Positions 11,494-54,418 of a stretch of DNA of 64,000 nucleotides are shown here, piece after piece. This DNA comes from the human T2T-CHM13v2.0 reference genome, Homo sapiens. The notes below the pieces were generated by a model. That model ran no database searches, was not told the origin of the DNA, and saw only the letters and a program-made list of their open reading frames with translations. Position 1 is the stretch's first letter; each line of letters begins with the position of its first letter. A program made the translations under genes and the position numbers. The stretch is taken from assembly GCF_009914755.1 (NCBI RefSeq), contig NC_060941.1. The stretch is one strand, 5' to 3'.

Positions 11494-11639
11494 ACCTGTG
11501 GATGAAGAGCCAGAGTCCTCCAAGGTAAATGCTCCTGGCCAGTGGCCTGGTGTCTGTGTTAACTGAACATCTCCAACGCCCTCAGAGTCCACAACCACCA
11601 TTAAGTCACTTATCAAGTCATTTGACTTGGGATGCCCAG
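11494..11639 (+). pseudogene. SPECC1 (cytospin-B) pseudo-exon, 146 bp, with in-frame stop
   Basis: cag|A CCT GTG GAT...CCA G|gtattt encodes [47 protein letters not shown], versus recalled SPECC1 [48 protein letters not shown]. TGA at 11564-11566. Confidence 0.88.
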
Positions 11640-12459
11640 GTATTTGATCACTTTTTTTCTATAAGCAAAGCTCCAAATTCAAACTTTGGCCCAACATTTG
11701 ATATGTCAACTGTCTCTACTCCACCCTGGCTCCACGTTGGCTGTTACAATCACAAGGGTGCTTTCCAGGTCCTACCAGGTGCAGCCACTGCCTACAGGAG
11801 CCTGGCTGAGGCTCCAGGGAGGCGCTGATGGAGAGCCTGGCCCATGAATAACACAAATGCAGCCTCTTCCTCTCTACCTCTTCCTTCCATCCAGTTCCTG
11901 CCTTGTCACCTTTCTTTTCTGCCTCTCATAGCCATTAAATTCAGGTCACTACTATTTGCCTTTTTGTCGTCTCATGAGAATTACAAGGGTCAGCTGGAGA
12001 CTTCACCTCCTAGGAAATGAGGCATCACATCTGTGCACCTGGCCCTCTTGTAGGCACCCCTGGCCATCCCCATCTTGAACCTGCTAGATGTTTTTCTACC
12101 TGGTCTTGTACCTGAGCACCTGTGCTAATCTGTCACTCCTGATCTTGGTACATTCCCAGCTTTTCCTGGAATTGTCTGATGGACTCACAATTCCACTTTA
12201 GTCATGCTTATCTTTATATATGAGAAAGATACGTAGCTATACTTCATACATATACTGTACACATAAACATAGCAAATAGAAGAAACAGAATGTGCATCTC
12301 TCTACAGTAACATATATTTCTTCCCTGGACTGCAACAAATATGCCATTGAATTGGAAGACTGTTGTAAAAGTTAATCCTAGGATGTACCTAGTTGTCTCT
12401 GCTAAAATAGTTTGCAGCTAAATTAGATGATTAGACTGTGCATATTGAAAGACATGGAA

Positions 12460-12758
12460 GGGCTGGGCGTGGTGGCTCATGCCTGTAATCCCAGCACTTC
12501 GGGAGGTCGAGGCTGGTGGATCACCTGAGGTCAAGACCAGCCTGGTCAACATGGTAAAACCCTGTCTCTACTAAAAATACAAAAAAAATTATGTGGGCGT
12601 GGTGGTGCACACCTGTAATCCCAGCTACTCAGGAGGCTGAGACAGGAGAATTGCTGGAACCCCAGAGGTGGAGGTTGCAATGAGCCGAGATTGTGCCATT
12701 GCACTCCAGCCTGGGCAACAAGACTGAGACTCCATCTCAAAAAAAGAAAAAAAGAAAG
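12460..12758 (+). mobile_element. AluS-like
   Basis: Sense Alu dimer with A tail. Confidence 0.85.
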
Positions 12759-13116
12759 ATATGAAGCCGAAAGCCCAGTGAGTGAGTCTGTGAAGGTGGG
12801 AAATGAATTAACAGTAACAGTTTGTGCAAGAACTTTCCTGTTCCTTCCTCCCCGAGGCACCTCATTATTTAAACATTTGCATTTTACTCAGTTATCCTAC
12901 ATCTAAGACTGATCTCCACTCAGCCAACTCCTCCTGCCCTCTCATTTCTCCAATTCAGCTTTAGTCCAGAGGAGAAAAGGATAATAGAGTAAATGTTACA
13001 CTAAACATCATGGGATACTTCTTAAGTCACCAAAAAAGTAACAACAAATTAAGAAGTATTATTTGCTATTTTGAACTGGATCAACATATAAATGTTCCCA
13101 TCTCTTTTCTTGGCAG

Positions 13117-13217
13117 GTGAAGCTGGACTGAATATTTCTGTCCATAAGACTATTAGAATCCCCCAAAGTGGGATACCAGTGAGGACCTCACCAGCAGCTG
13201 CTGTCTCTCCAATGCAG
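13117..13217 (+). pseudogene. SPECC1 pseudo-exon (next exon, 101 bp)
   Basis: tggcag|GT GAA GCT...ATG CAG|gtagat encodes [34 protein letters not shown], versus recalled SPECC1 [34 protein letters not shown]. Phase matches the upstream exon. Confidence 0.88.
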
Positions 13218-51326: not shown

Positions 51327-51476
51327 AGTGCCTCATGAAGCTTTCCTGGAGCACCATCTGGGAGTTTCAGGAGCGACTTTTTCAGAGCTGGGCCCCGGAG
51401 GACAACGTGGTCCTCAGGAACCTTCAAACCTCCGTGAAGGAACTCACAAGGAAACACTGGGACCTGCCACCCCCAG
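51327..51476 (+). pseudogene. TBC1D26/TBC1D3-family pseudo-exon (150 bp)
   Basis: ccctag|CLMKLSWSTIWEFQERLFQSWAPEDNVVLRNLQTSVKELTRKHWDLPPP|gtgggc; compare TBC1D3 ...[22 protein letters not shown]. Confidence 0.88.
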
Positions 51477-52902
51477 GTGGGCTCCAGCACCAAGTCTCCT
51501 CCCAAGTCACCCTCTGGGGCAGTCAGTGGTGGGGAGTGCCCTGGCCCTACCAGCCCTCCTACCTGGCCTTCCTCCTGCACCTCTTCCTCCTCTACTCTAA
51601 GAAAGTAAAATGGGTCTGCCACTCCTCAGGGCAGGCACTGAGCGTGTGTGTGCGGGACATGAGGTGCAGACAGGCAGGGGCTGTGGGCAGGACCCCCCAA
51701 CTTCCCTCCCCCTCTTTCCACATTGTCCCCATCACCCCCTCAAAGGGCCCTGAAGGGCACTGGGGCAGTCAGATCCAGGTGTGGAAGACCCCACCCCTGC
51801 CTCCAAGCAGCAGGATCCCTCATTCTTGAGTGCCCCTCCAAGCCTGTCAAGACAACAAGCCAGGAGGACAAGAGAGAATCAGTGTCCCAGATCCAGAGAG
51901 GATTTGGGCAGAGGGCACGGGGGGAAGCCCTGACCCAGAGCCAGAACCAAGAGTTCAGCCGGGCATGGGATTTGTCCAGCCCTGGCATGGGGTGGACGGC
52001 CTGGAGGGCAGAGGGAAACCCGTGCCCTTCACTTCTCACCCACTGTGGAGACAGACCCCATGCGAGGTGGCAAGGGGGCTGGGTGACAGTGAAGGTCCCT
52101 TTCACCTGAGTTCTGAGTCAGGGCTGCTGAACAGCCCTGAGGTGAGGGAGGGCGTGAGGCAGGAAGCCCTGAGCCAGCCTGAAGCCTGGGAGCCGTTTCA
52201 GGACCGACCTGAGGTTCCCTGAAAGCTCCCCCACCCCAGGCTGCACACAGCCCTCACCCTGGGATCAGCAGCTTGCAGAGGTGTCCTCAGTGTCAGGCCA
52301 GAGGACACCCGGGGACCCCAGGACTCCAGAGGCCCAGGGCTGTGGGCCCAGCCCTGGAGAGGCCCCTGAGGCCTCTGACCCCACCTGTGGGTCAGAGCCT
52401 GTCCCCCAGGGCCTGAGTCCCAGGCCCAGAGGGACCTGGCTTCAACTCGAGTTGTCCTAGGAGGACAGGGGCACTGCAGATCTCCAGGTGACCACGCAGG
52501 GCACCAGGGCACTGCAAGCCCTGATGCTGTAAGGATTCACATCAGAGAACCTGGGCAAGCCAGGCCAGAGACGCTGAGCCCGTGCAGTGATGAGGATGTG
52601 GAGGGCTGGCTCAAGGGGGTCAACAGCTGTGAACACTGCTGCCTCTTCCCGGCCTCATTGTTGCAGTGCAGGCAGTCTGCACCCCGGAGCCTGGCCCAAC
52701 AGCGCCCCGAGTGCCCTAGTCCACTATGCCAACATGGTACCCGGAGGCTTCGAGGCCCTGCCTGCTGCACCACCCGCCTCCTGGAGGCCTTGTTCTGCAG
52801 CCTAGCCCCTGCCGCAGCCACAGCAGGCACCACTGCCAAGTGCCTTCCAGCCGGGCTTCCCAGAGGACAGAGGCATCCTGCAGTCATTGCCTCAGCAGCT
52901 CA

Positions 52903-53770
52903 CACTGTGAAGATAGTTTCATCCACATTCCCATGTTCCCACCAAAGAGAATCCCTGCAGAGGGTGCTCTTGATCCTGCGGTGGGGAAAACAGCACACTA
53001 GGTGGACTCAGCTCCTTTCCCTGGCCACCATGATTGCTGGATGGGCCCACAAAGCAGCCATCAGACAGGCATGTTGGGGAAGAGCCTAAGCAATCCTGCT
53101 TGTTCCCTGACCAGACCGACACCACTGCCGAGTGCCCCATCTGCTGATGAGAGATTTGGTGTCGATCCCTGGACTGGCACCATTTCCCAGGAGGAGCGGC
53201 TGGCTACCTGTGGGCAGGCTGCCCACACTGTGGAGAGGGCTGAGATCGGCCTTCACTACGGGGAGCCCCTACCTGGACATAGACTCGCCAGCCCTGCCTG
53301 TTGCCATCACAGCAGCCCACATGGCATTGCTTGTGACCAGGGTACCCCATTCACAGTGACGGACATGCAGCAGTGGCCCTTGACTAGGGAACTAACTCTT
53401 CTCGCTACGTCACCCACCGCCTGGAAGCAACTGGACTTAGGATCGCTGTTATGCTGAAGTGGTGAGGTTGTCTTACAAGATGAATTTTATCCTTTCTACT
53501 GGAAGCCAGTGTATGGTGATGACTCCCCCACAACCAGAAGGTGTAGTTCTGAGTGAAGGTGTGAAAGTGGACGATGTTCAGTGTTGCACCGAATGTCTCA
53601 GTCACAAAGTTTTCCTATTGCCTGTCCTGGAGAAATGGAACTTTGCTGGTTGGAAGGTCTTAGGACCCAGGAAGAGTGAAGCTTCCCCCAGGGGAACACA
53701 ACAATGGTTCTATTTAATATGAGGAGACAGGACTAAGTCTGAAACCTCGGGGCATTCTCTGGTGTTCTTG
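52903..53770 (+). mobile_element. Degenerate ERV-L internal remnant (RNase H end, integrase, dUTPase start)
   Basis: Frameshifted motifs in ERV-L order: TVKI..SHQR; LSLATMIAGWAH; TAECPIC; IACDQGTPFTVTDMQQW; YVTHRLEATGL; KVFLLPV..AGWKVL; LPPG/TTM. Confidence 0.75.
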
Positions 53771-54412
53771 AGTGTTTCCATGTAAAGGAAGTCAAGTAAC
53801 TTGCCACAAAGCTTTGCCACAGAAGCATCTGAAAAAGGAGGGGGCAGAACTATTCAGAACTCAGAGGTTTCAGAACCAAAGATGAGGCCGAGAAGATTCC
53901 TGACCCGCTGAGGGCAAGGGAAGTATGTGGGGGCGGCTGGGAGAGGATGTTATAGAGTCCGCCATGGCCTCGTGACCTGTCACAGAACCGTGCACTTTAA
54001 TAGCTGTGCACATCTTCTCTGCACTGATTATAGTATTTCTTTGCCTTTGCTACTCTCCACACAGGGAGCTTGCTACAAAATGCACATAACCACAGCCCGG
54101 GTCTTGCAATCCAAGCCTGGCAAGGATTCAGCATGTCAAGGGCTTCAGGTCTGAAGGTCCATGGCTGTCCTGAATCCTGGATATCACCTTCTTGCCCAAA
54201 AAAGGAGGGACGAGGCTCAAACCGCAGCAGGCCACTCACAGAAAGGGACGAAACGTTGAGTGCGTGGCCTCCCTGACACCCAGACAAGACTTTGGGCCCA
54301 AAGCCAGGCTGCAGCTCTGGCCACTGACTCAGACCAGGGACGCCCCCATGCAGGCCGGTGTCCCCTGGCCGCTCTTCTCCCTCCTGCCACCCTCTCTTCG
54401 GCTGCTTGTGTC

Positions 54413-54418
54413 AATAAA
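54413..54418 (+). terminator. Plus-strand AATAAA convergent with the USP22 end
   Basis: gtcAATAAAag; usage unproven. Confidence 0.4.

What the first reader, a model, noticed from the sequence alone, without database searches (positions are those of the whole stretch)
11494..54418. Co-oriented mosaic of four unrelated gene fragments: a possible chimeric transcription unit
Seen: SPECC1 exons, TACI promoter and exons 1-2, the MAST2 exon-1 piece and TBC-family exons all lie on the plus strand, mostly with canonical splice sites, ending at an AATAAA facing USP22. TACI exon 2 ends in phase 1 and the TBC exon at 51327 starts in phase 1. A 36443-51327 splice would give an in-frame CRD1-TBC-helix fusion from the ATG at 36335. 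Established: USP6 is a 17p chimeric gene formed from TBC1D3 and USP32 duplicons. Inference: this may be a nascent fusion-gene substrate, probably overlapping an annotated lncRNA (I recall CCDC144NL-AS1/LOC339260 here; unverified).
Basis: partly seen in the sequence, partly recalled or inferred. Interest (0 to 1): 0.7.

Follow-up and report, generated by a model that had tools for sequence, protein, structure and literature searches.

The report
Spliced RNA across old pseudogene fragments
Next to human USP22 lies a decayed leftover of the TACI (TNFRSF13B) gene, joined to pieces of SPECC1 and a TBC1D3-like gene and hit by a jumping SVA element; it is transcribed as an already annotated spliced RNA, most likely non-coding, and not as a new fusion protein.

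Summary
SPECC1-, TACI-, MAST2- and TBC-like pieces all lie on the + strand. The splice sites, the ATG at 36335, the phase-1 match and the AATAAA at 54413 are as stated.

- The chimeric transcription unit is already annotated: LOC339260, and predicted LOC124900389, published as "Retro 1", which is over-expressed in CLL.
- The pieces are not four independent duplicons. Window 22.5-55.5 kb is one collinear paralogue of the TNFRSF13B-plus-TBC locus at chr17:16.82-16.92 Mb, with about 10-13% mismatch, so it is old.
- That block includes about 1 kb of the USP22 3'UTR. Usp22 and Tnfrsf13b are neighbours in mouse and duck. I therefore read the TACI piece as a relic of that ancestral neighbourhood.
- The "MAST2" piece is the 5' end of an SVA_F1 retrotransposon with target-site duplications.
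- The TACI copy has lost its ATG, carries a frameshift and a stop, and lacks the CRD2 exon and a further 15 kb. The TBC copy carries 1-bp and 2-bp deletions.
- The annotated 36443->48931 splice stops the CRD1 frame after 53 codons. Nothing supports 36443->51327. The predicted 314-aa frame looks neutral.

Low interest; already known.

The parts
3074..15353 (+). SPECC1-derived duplicated block. It covers LOC339260 exons 3918-4256 and 10781/11009/11021-11168, which have no long open frame.
   Evidence: 8 collinear BLAST blocks to chr17:20182174-20197759 (+), mismatch fraction 0.118 over 9239 aligned nt. A second copy lies at chr17:15741328-15758897. The upstream exons hold stops in all frames.
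11449..11524 (+). Annotated exon inside the SPECC1 copy. The native SPECC1 exon starts at 11494 (cag|ACC). The acceptor at 11449 and the donor at 11524 are specific to this copy.
   Evidence: at the acceptor the parent reads ATGG where the window reads ATAG. At the donor the parent reads GTCGAT where the window reads GTAAAT.
13117..13217 (+). SPECC1-derived exon that keeps the native acceptor and donor.
   Evidence: about 90% identity to chr17:20195859-20196007. AG and GT are present in both copies, and the parent frame is open.
22466..44887 (+). Unprocessed copy of the 5' half of TNFRSF13B (upstream flank, exon 1, intron 1, exon 2, parts of later introns). It continues at 48777-49144.
   Evidence: 16 collinear blocks to chr17:16920437-16888897 (-), mismatch fraction 0.102 over 16218 nt.
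24347..24406 (+). TACI exon-1 copy: start codon ATG changed to GTG, a 1-bp deletion, donor kept at 24406|GT. RefSeq enhancer marks lie at 24100-24529.
   Evidence: Alignment with chr17:16917960-16918300 (-). Enhancer rows come from the hub table.
36306..36443 (+). TACI exon-2 (CRD1) copy, 138 nt, with native AG and GT kept. A TGG-to-TGA stop lies before the internal ATG at 36335.
   Evidence: 90% identity to chr17:16898672-16898495. Pfam TACI-CRD2 E 2.2e-4, 21.6 bits, below the 22.9 cut-off. PDB TACI/BCMA chains only at E 0.09-0.6.
38718..41479 (+). SVA_F1 retrotransposon: MAST2 exon-1 piece 38719-38865, Alu-like remnant, VNTR 38902-40519, a tail carrying an Alu, a short transduced stretch and poly(A). 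The 12-14 nt target-site duplication lies at 38706-38717 and 41480-41491.
   Evidence: Family definition from PMC6139936 (passages).
48931..49182 (+). Composite exon. The 5' part comes from TACI-intron-derived sequence with a cryptic acceptor. The last ~50 nt are the end of a TBC exon with its native donor.
   Evidence: 48777-49144 matches chr17:16889275-16888897. 49133 onward matches 16873805 and all TBC copies.
49133..53375 (+). 3' fragment of a TBC1D3-family gene, truncated at the same point as its paralogue beside TNFRSF13B. It holds exons 49880-49973 (1-bp deletion), 50328-50393, 50735-50914 (2-bp deletion, donor inside the old exon), 51327-51476 and the start of the last exon at 52461.
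52461..55945 (+). Annotated last exon. The predicted CDS ends at 53089. The exon runs past the AATAAA at 54413-54418 and overlaps the USP22 3'UTR antisense.
   Evidence: Hub table. TaqMan probe and reverse primer map at 52463-52498.
54437..55470 (-). End of the USP22 3'UTR that lies inside the duplicated block.
   Evidence: One HSP links 52364-55470 to chr17:16826783-16823749 (-), and 53806-55416 to chr17:15650290-15651914 (+). The USP22 3' end at 54437 is from the hub.

Best explanation
The region is an old patchwork of pseudogene fragments that is transcribed and spliced as a long, most likely non-coding RNA.

Structure. The core, window 22.5-55.5 kb, is one paralogous copy of a single ancestral arrangement: TNFRSF13B, followed by a truncated TBC1D3-family fragment, facing the 3' end of USP22. 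USP22 is whole only here, and Usp22-Tnfrsf13b are neighbours in mouse and duck. I therefore infer that this copy is the relic left at the USP22 side when the neighbourhood was duplicated and split. The working TNFRSF13B stayed with the MPRIP/PLD6/FLCN side, 4 Mb away.

Decay. The relic then lost its start codon, gained a frameshift and a stop, and lost the CRD2 exon region and a further 15 kb. It received a SPECC1-derived block upstream and, much later, a human-specific SVA_F1 that brought the MAST2 exon-1 piece.

Splicing. Splicing works because several native splice sites survive: SPECC1 exon 13117-13217, TACI exon 2 and the TBC exons. New or cryptic sites were also recruited at 11449, 11524, 48931 and 50914.

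Products. The products are LOC339260 and the longer LOC124900389 ('Retro 1') RNAs. The long open frames are by-products of G+C-rich sequence.
For: Shown here:
- Collinearity of window 22466-44887, 48777-49144, 49133-52365 and 51019-55470 with chr17:16920437-16823749 (-).
- The parent is TNFRSF13B: its CRD2 exon matches PDB 1XUT/1XU1 at E 2.5e-26.
- The TBC fragment is truncated at the same base in both copies, and all scored TBC loci start matching there.
- About 1 kb of the USP22 3'UTR lies inside the duplicated block.
- Lesions: ATG to GTG plus a 1-bp deletion; TGA in exon 2. The parent intervals 16891846-16896201 (CRD2 exon) and 16873805-16888897 have no counterpart in window 36-56 kb except Alus and one inverted repeat. 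The TBC exons carry 1-bp and 2-bp deletions.
- SVA_F1 with target-site duplication. 80 genome-wide candidates for the MAST2 piece, 40 scored at 99-100%.
- Mismatch fractions of 0.102-0.134.
- Coding tests: the annotated splice gives a 53-codon frame from ATG 36335. In the last coding exon, the differing codons are 12 synonymous and 32 non-synonymous against the 16.826 Mb paralogue. The window holds 7 stop-free frames of 200 or more codons. There are 13 upstream ATGs in the 1129-nt window part of the leader.

From papers (passages):
- Mouse order '...Kcnj12, Tnfrsf13b, Usp22, Aldh3a1...' (PMC2990707).
- Duck list 'Usp22, Tnfrsf13b, 2 LOCs, Pld6, Flcn, Cops3...' (PMC13255704).
- Retro 1 RT-PCR and CLL over-expression (PMC10622969). 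Its primers map exactly to the window and carry 2-3 mismatches in the paralogues I hold.

From the hub: the RefSeq exon tables.
Against: - The direction of the duplication and the 'relic' reading are inferred. No outgroup primate genome was available. The convergent orientation of Tnfrsf13b and Usp22 in mouse is recalled, not shown.
- The two papers give gene lists, which I take to be in map order.
- Identity varies between blocks (mismatch 0.076-0.178), so more than one event, or gene conversion, is possible. The parent locus itself carries a 41-kb insertion with secondary copies of window sequence.
- RefSeq predicts a 314-aa protein. The last-exon frame is also open in the paralogue for about 180 codons. 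CLL expression is very high (PMC10622969). A small protein product is therefore not excluded.
- That TNFRSF13B exons 4-5 lie in the missing 15 kb rests on recalled gene structure.
- The transcription start, 6.6 kb upstream of the window, could not be examined.
Confidence: 0.78

Rival explanations
1. One reading: a nascent fusion gene. Transcripts from the TACI-like ATG at 36335 splice 36443->51327 and give a CRD1 plus TBC-helix fusion protein.
For: The phases match, and the joined frame is open for 295 codons. Both splice sites are canonical. The 3' exons are strongly expressed in CLL B cells (PMC10622969, passages).
Against: - The junction is not among the exons listed by the hub. The listed junction 36443->48931 gives a stop after 53 codons.
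- The fusion would skip four annotated exons.
- CRD1 would stand alone: the CRD2 exon region and a further 15 kb are missing, and the exon-1-like start codon is lost.
- Only 49 residues would be in a TBC frame, and no Pfam TBC hit was found for the window exons.
- The remaining 209 codons look neutral.
- The substrate is old, not nascent.
Confidence: 0.03
2. LOC124900389 is a true protein-coding gene. The 314-aa frame (50749..53089) is translated and acts in B cells or CLL.
For: RefSeq predicts this CDS (hub). The stop lies in the last exon, so the exon-junction rule for nonsense-mediated decay does not apply. The ATG and the last-exon frame are also present in paralogues. Expression in CLL is high and responds to a BTK inhibitor (PMC10622969).
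Against: - The first coding exon leaves the TBC frame through a 2-bp deletion specific to this copy.
- No Pfam family was found for any coding exon.
- Differing codons are 12 synonymous and 32 non-synonymous.
- 13 upstream ATGs lie in the leader.
- Open frames this long occur 7 times in the window.
Confidence: 0.08
3. A chance mosaic: four independent duplicons landed here separately and happen to share a strand.
For: The SPECC1 block and the SVA are indeed separate arrivals. Sequences matching window 1366-2780 and 17267-24287 are contiguous at chr17:16848255-16857509, so the SPECC1 block looks like an insertion.
Against: The TACI, TBC and USP22-3'UTR pieces keep the same order and orientation at chr17:16.82-16.92 Mb. 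The TBC truncation point is also identical. Independent landings would not reproduce that.
Confidence: 0.05

Closest known systems
USP6 (Tre2), the TBC1D3-USP32 chimeric gene on chromosome 17
   Same: A TBC1D3-family segment has been placed beside part of another gene by segmental duplication on chromosome 17, and exons of both are spliced into one transcript. PMC4949931 (passage) states the fusion origin of USP6. The USP6-region locus chr17:5.03 Mb matches the window's TBC block at 70%; assigning that locus to USP6 is recalled.
   Different: USP6 is described as a fusion of two genes that yields an oncoprotein. Here only the 3' end of a TBC gene is present, with two frame-breaking deletions. 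The partner is a decapitated TACI copy. The annotated junction is out of frame, and the open frame looks neutral.
SVA_F1 (MAST2-SVA) retrotransposons
   Same: The first exon of MAST2 replaces most of the Alu-like region, followed by VNTR, SINE-R and poly(A), with target-site duplications. About 84 human copies are reported (PMC6139936, passages); I found 80 candidates.
   Different: None of substance: this is an ordinary member. It sits in sense orientation inside the transcription unit. It also carries an Alu and a short extra 3' stretch, which several other copies share.
TBC1D27P / TBC1D26-type truncated TBC1D3 relatives on 17p
   Same: 82-83% identity to the fragment 11-25 kb downstream of TNFRSF13B and to one at chr17:15.65 Mb, with the same truncation point. 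TBC1D27 is reported at 17p11.2, listed against the sentinel SNP rs34562254 (PMC6700979, passage); that this SNP lies in TNFRSF13B is recalled.
   Different: The gene names for those loci are recalled, not read from an annotation. This copy has its own 1-bp and 2-bp deletions and is spliced to TACI- and SPECC1-derived exons.
Primate-specific spliced non-coding RNAs from duplicated gene fragments (e.g. PMCHL1/2)
   Same: Fragments of older genes are transcribed and spliced, with open frames that are not translated. I saw only the title and abstract of PMC2621205 in the listing.
   Different: PMCHL arose by retroposition. This unit arose by genomic duplication and keeps introns.

Membership tests
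Chimeric (fusion) protein-coding gene of the USP6 type | Spliced transcripts join exons derived from different parent genes | tested here: met
   The hub RefSeq table lists 13217->36306 (BestRefSeq) and 36443->48931 (predicted). All the sites are canonical. Published RT-PCR primers span 51476->52461 (PMC10622969). I ran no RNA data of my own.
Chimeric (fusion) protein-coding gene of the USP6 type | One open frame runs across the junction in the parental frames | tested here: not met
   The annotated junction 36443->48931 ends the frame after 53 codons. The in-frame 36443->51327 junction is hypothetical.
Chimeric (fusion) protein-coding gene of the USP6 type | Recognisable parental domains are retained | tested here: not met
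   Only CRD1 remains, and it scores below the Pfam cut-off. The CRD2 exon is absent. The window's TBC exons give no Pfam hit and carry frameshifts.
Chimeric (fusion) protein-coding gene of the USP6 type | Purifying selection on the frame | tested here: inconclusive
   12 synonymous against 32 non-synonymous codon differences in one paralogue comparison fits neutrality. This rests on one pair, with no orthologues.
Unprocessed TNFRSF13B pseudogene | Collinear with the parent, introns included, and carrying disabling lesions | tested here: met
   16 collinear blocks. ATG to GTG, a 1-bp deletion, a TGA, and loss of the CRD2 exon region and a further 15 kb. The parent was identified through PDB 1XUT/1XU1.
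SVA_F1 retrotransposon | MAST2 exon 1 at the 5' end in place of the hexamer and most of the Alu-like region | tested here: met
   147 nt are 100% identical to chr1:45681124-45681270 and to the other scored copies. That this chr1 place is MAST2 exon 1 is recalled from its position. The family definition is from PMC6139936.
SVA_F1 retrotransposon | VNTR, 3' part, poly(A) and target-site duplication | tested here: met
   VNTR at 38902-40519. The 3' part is shared with SVA copies at 83-98% identity. Poly(A) and the 12-14 nt duplication are seen.
TBC1D3 family (RabGAP-TBC) | RabGAP-TBC domain | tested here: inconclusive
   The window exons give 0 families. Of 28 open frames scanned in the homologous chr1 locus L013, 1 gave PF00566 at E 6.2e-6 (26.5 bits, cut-off 25.2), at the edge of the homology. 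DNA homology to 40 scored loci.
Long non-coding RNA | Spliced transcript without a conserved, translated frame | tested here: inconclusive
   The sequence tests point that way. Translation itself cannot be tested with these tools.

The most novel reading that the evidence does not exclude
The decayed TACI promoter and exon-1 region at 24.1-24.5 kb has sat beside USP22 since before the duplication. It may still work as a B-lineage regulatory element, and it may be what gives the chimeric LOC339260/LOC124900389 unit its B-cell, BTK-responsive, CLL-over-expressed pattern. Under this reading a dead receptor gene's control region has been inherited by a new RNA. A minor share of transcripts might then also start there or carry the CRD1 frame.
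Probability: 0.22. Interest if true: 0.5.

Novelty: already known. Interest (0 to 1): 0.25.

Why it matters
The unit is already in RefSeq, and its 3' part has been studied as 'Retro 1', the most up-regulated HERV-containing transcript in CLL. The chimeric transcript itself is therefore not news.

This look adds an origin for that CLL marker. It is the relic of the ancestral USP22-TNFRSF13B neighbourhood, not a new fusion gene. Its predicted protein is probably not real. This matters mainly to people who would otherwise treat LOC124900389 as a coding gene or as a retroviral gene.

It also marks an evolutionary breakpoint of 17p11.2 that lies inside a duplicated immune-receptor gene.

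Tried and rejected
- Pfam on single window exons gave nothing for the TBC exons: 6 proteins scanned. Two read-through translations with stops read as X gave 0 families.
- A PDB search with the exon-2-like peptide gave only weak TACI/BCMA hits (E 0.09-0.6), because only CRD2 has been solved.
- I first noted that the last exon (52461 onward) was unrelated to TBC genes, since the 70% matches stop at 52364. A more sensitive BLAST and a further genome search showed weaker homology to TBC-family loci up to about 53375, so I dropped that note.
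- I could not confirm the HERV-L label that the CLL paper gives to part of the last exon. A genome search with 52850-53800 found 7 matches: the window itself, 2 at the 16.8 Mb paralogue, and 4 at other TBC-family loci. No dispersed copies appeared. My placing of the paper's hg38 coordinates in the window rests on a recalled offset.
- The notes of earlier readers were closed.
- Literature: two phrase and term searches for a described TACI pseudogene or a USP22-TNFRSF13B duplication found nothing on the subject. One search returned 0 papers. One search returned 9 papers holding at least 3 of 4 terms, none on this topic by title.
- The 8 papers that name LOC339260 are expression lists. I read a passage of one (PMC8491982).

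Full report
**Observation**

The window is T2T-CHM13 chr17:20894001-20958000 (hub).
- The ATG is at 36335, and the exon ends at 36443 before GTGAGT, 109 nt later, which is phase 1.
- The exon at 51327 follows an AG, and the annotated CDS enters it in phase 1.
- A script joining 36335-36443, 51327-51476 and 52461-53089 gives an open frame of 295 codons.
- AATAAA lies at 54413-54418, 19 nt from the annotated USP22 3' end.
- Of the 20 annotated exon intervals, 19 follow AG and 16 precede GT. The exceptions are transcript starts or ends.

**The TACI piece and its parent**

The exon-2-like region matches only one other long place in the genome, chr17:16898360-16898879 (-), at 83% over 500 nt. There were 3 matches in all: the window itself, this one, and a 57-nt hit on chr5. 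The exon-1 region matches chr17:16917580-16918813 (-) at 87%.

I fetched 110 kb of that locus and mapped the window on it by BLAST. Sixteen blocks from window 22466 to 49144 are collinear with chr17:16920437 down to 16888897, with a mismatch fraction of 0.102 over 16218 aligned nt.

The parent is TNFRSF13B. [quoted passage not shown]

The window copy is dead as a receptor gene:
- The start codon reads GTG, and the exon-1 copy has a 1-bp deletion, though the donor at 24406 survives.
- The exon-2 copy keeps both native splice sites and its 138-nt length, but has TGA where the parent has TGG, upstream of the internal ATG.
- The parent intervals 16891846-16896201 (with the CRD2 exon) and 16873805-16888897 have no counterpart in window 36-56 kb beyond Alus and one inverted 590-nt repeat. 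That exons 4-5 lie in the second interval is recalled gene structure, not tested.
- On its own the exon-2 peptide scores below Pfam's cut-off for TACI-CRD2 (E 2.2e-4, 21.6 against 22.9 bits).

**The TBC piece is part of the same block**

Window 49133-52365 matches chr17:16873805-16870508 (-) at 83%. That lies downstream of TNFRSF13B on the same strand. Window 51019-55470 matches chr17:16828991-16823749 (-).

The same stretch matches a family of loci at 69-73%: 73 candidates, 40 scored; 54 candidates, 40 scored. They cluster at chr17:37.1-37.4 and 38.9-39.05 Mb and include chr17:5.03 Mb. I recall these as the TBC1D3 clusters and USP6.

All these matches begin at window 49133-49149, and the paralogue beside TNFRSF13B is cut at the same base. 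The truncated TBC fragment was therefore already in place before this block was duplicated.

The window's own TBC exons give no Pfam hit. In the homologous chr1 locus, 1 of 28 scanned open frames gave RabGAP-TBC (E 6.2e-6, above the cut-off), exactly at the 5' edge of the homology. This makes exon 48931-49182 a composite. A cryptic acceptor in TACI-intron-derived sequence is joined to the last ~50 nt of a TBC exon with its native donor.

Weaker homology to TBC-family loci continues to about 53375, so the last exon is also duplicon-derived. This copy has a 1-bp deletion in exon 49880-49973. It also has a 2-bp deletion in exon 50735-50914, whose annotated donor lies inside the old exon.

**USP22 and the ancestral neighbourhood**

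The duplicated block runs on to 55470, about 1 kb into the USP22 3'UTR. That piece is present at chr17:16.824 Mb and at 15.651 Mb. USP22 is whole only here.
- A mouse paper lists '...Map2k3, Kcnj12, Tnfrsf13b, Usp22, Aldh3a1...' (PMC2990707, passage).
- A duck GWAS table lists 'Usp22, Tnfrsf13b, two LOCs, Pld6, Flcn, Cops3...' (PMC13255704, passage).
- A chicken QTL window holds USP22, PEMT and TNFRSF13B together (PMC4683778, passages).

I infer that USP22-TNFRSF13B-PLD6/FLCN is the old order. The TACI segment was then duplicated and the two copies separated. The window holds the relic at the USP22 side. This step is inference, because no outgroup primate genome was at hand. The tail-to-tail orientation in mouse is recalled.

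Mismatch fractions of 0.10-0.13 exceed the human-macaque level that I recall (about 0.065). This suggests an age of some tens of millions of years, so the block is not nascent.

**SPECC1**

Window 3074-15353 is collinear with chr17:20182174-20197759 (+), with mismatch 0.118 over 9239 nt. It is also collinear with a copy at chr17:15.74-15.76 Mb. RefSeq names 11497-13219 SPECC1P2 (hub).
- Exon 13117-13217 keeps its native sites.
- In exon 11449-11524 both sites are new to this copy: ATGG became ATAG, and GTCGAT became GTAAAT.
- Window 1366-2780 and 17267-24287 are contiguous in a further copy at chr17:16848255-16857509. The SPECC1 block therefore looks like an insertion into the TACI flank.

**MAST2**

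Window 38718-41479 is a dispersed repeat with thousands of candidates, 40 scored at 83-98%.
- It has a VNTR at 38902-40519, poly(A), and a 12-14 nt target-site duplication.
- Its first 147 nt are 100% identical to chr1:45681124-45681270 and to the 5' ends of other copies: 80 candidates, 40 scored at 99-100%.
- This is the SVA_F1 subfamily, in which MAST2 exon 1 replaces most of the Alu-like region. It is called human-specific, with 84 copies (PMC6139936, passages).

The 'MAST2 exon-1 piece' is therefore cargo of a recent retrotransposon, not a duplicon.

**Transcription**

The hub table shows the unit already annotated.
- LOC339260 (NR_123730.2) joins 13217->36306.
- Predicted LOC124900389 joins 36443->48931 and the TBC exons.
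- PMC10622969 (passages) calls the latter 'Retro 1'. It reports it as the most up-regulated HERV-bearing transcript in CLL against normal B cells, correlated with BTK and lowered by ibrutinib in 3 of 3 samples.
- Its primers and probe map exactly to 51392-51409, 52463-52479 and 52480-52498. In the paralogues I hold, the primers carry 2-3 mismatches and the probe 1. The junction 51476->52461 is therefore shown by experiment.
- I did not see that paper's supplementary figures.
- LOC339260 appears in 8 papers, as an item in expression lists.

**Coding potential**

- With the annotated splice, the frame from ATG 36335 stops after 53 codons. In the unspliced LOC339260 exon it runs 142 codons into intron-derived sequence.
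- The predicted 314-aa frame starts in intron-derived sequence, leaves the TBC frame through the 2-bp deletion, regains it for 49 residues, then runs 209 codons in the last exon.
- Against the 16.826 Mb paralogue, that last part differs at 12 synonymous and 32 non-synonymous codons, as expected without constraint.
- The window holds 7 stop-free frames of 200 or more codons.
- The window part of the leader holds 13 ATGs.

**Verdict**

The chimeric transcription unit is real but already known. The fusion-protein idea has no support. The pieces are an old relic of the TACI-TBC-USP22 neighbourhood, plus a SPECC1 insertion and an SVA_F1. Interest is low. The one point I did not find in print is the relic origin and the possible inherited B-cell control region.

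Noticed in passing
window 54437-55470 (- strand gene); chr17:16823749-16824800 and chr17:15650900-15651914: About 1 kb of the end of the USP22 3'UTR is copied at two other 17p places as part of the duplicated block. Short-read or probe signals for the USP22 3'UTR end could cross-map there.
   Followed up: partly
window 24100-24529: Three RefSeq 'enhancer' marks fall exactly on the decayed TACI promoter and exon-1 copy. Their sizes (50, 50 and 90 nt) resemble lymphoblastoid ATAC-STARR-seq features as I recall them; I did not check this.
   Followed up: no
window 1366-2780 and 17267-26809; chr17:16848255-16859600 (+): A further inverted partial copy of the TACI upstream flank sits inside the parent locus, within a 41-kb stretch that splits the parent's TBC fragment. 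More partial copies lie at chr17:15.728 Mb and 20.588 Mb. Sequence has moved in both directions between these loci.
   Followed up: partly
window 41037-41479: The SVA_F1 ends with an Alu, then an ~85-nt unique stretch holding AATAAA, then a second poly(A). This tail is shared with SVA copies on chr15:87.61 Mb, chr14:28.90 Mb, chr19:20.29 Mb and others, so they form one transduction lineage.
   Followed up: partly
window 41478-42067: A 590-nt stretch right after the SVA matches the parent locus next to the CRD2 exon (chr17:16893733-16894320) at 85%, but in inverted orientation. It is probably a repeat caught up in the rearrangement that removed the CRD2 exon.
   Followed up: no
window 44887-48777: About 3.9 kb between two TACI-collinear blocks has no counterpart of 400 nt or more in the parent locus (only ~250 nt separate the flanks there). 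Its origin is unknown.
   Followed up: no
window 38127: One predicted transcript starts 590 nt upstream of the SVA_F1 and runs unspliced for 12 kb through it. SVA_F1 MAST2 sequence is reported to have promoter activity (PMC6139936, citing other work), but this start lies outside the element.
   Followed up: no
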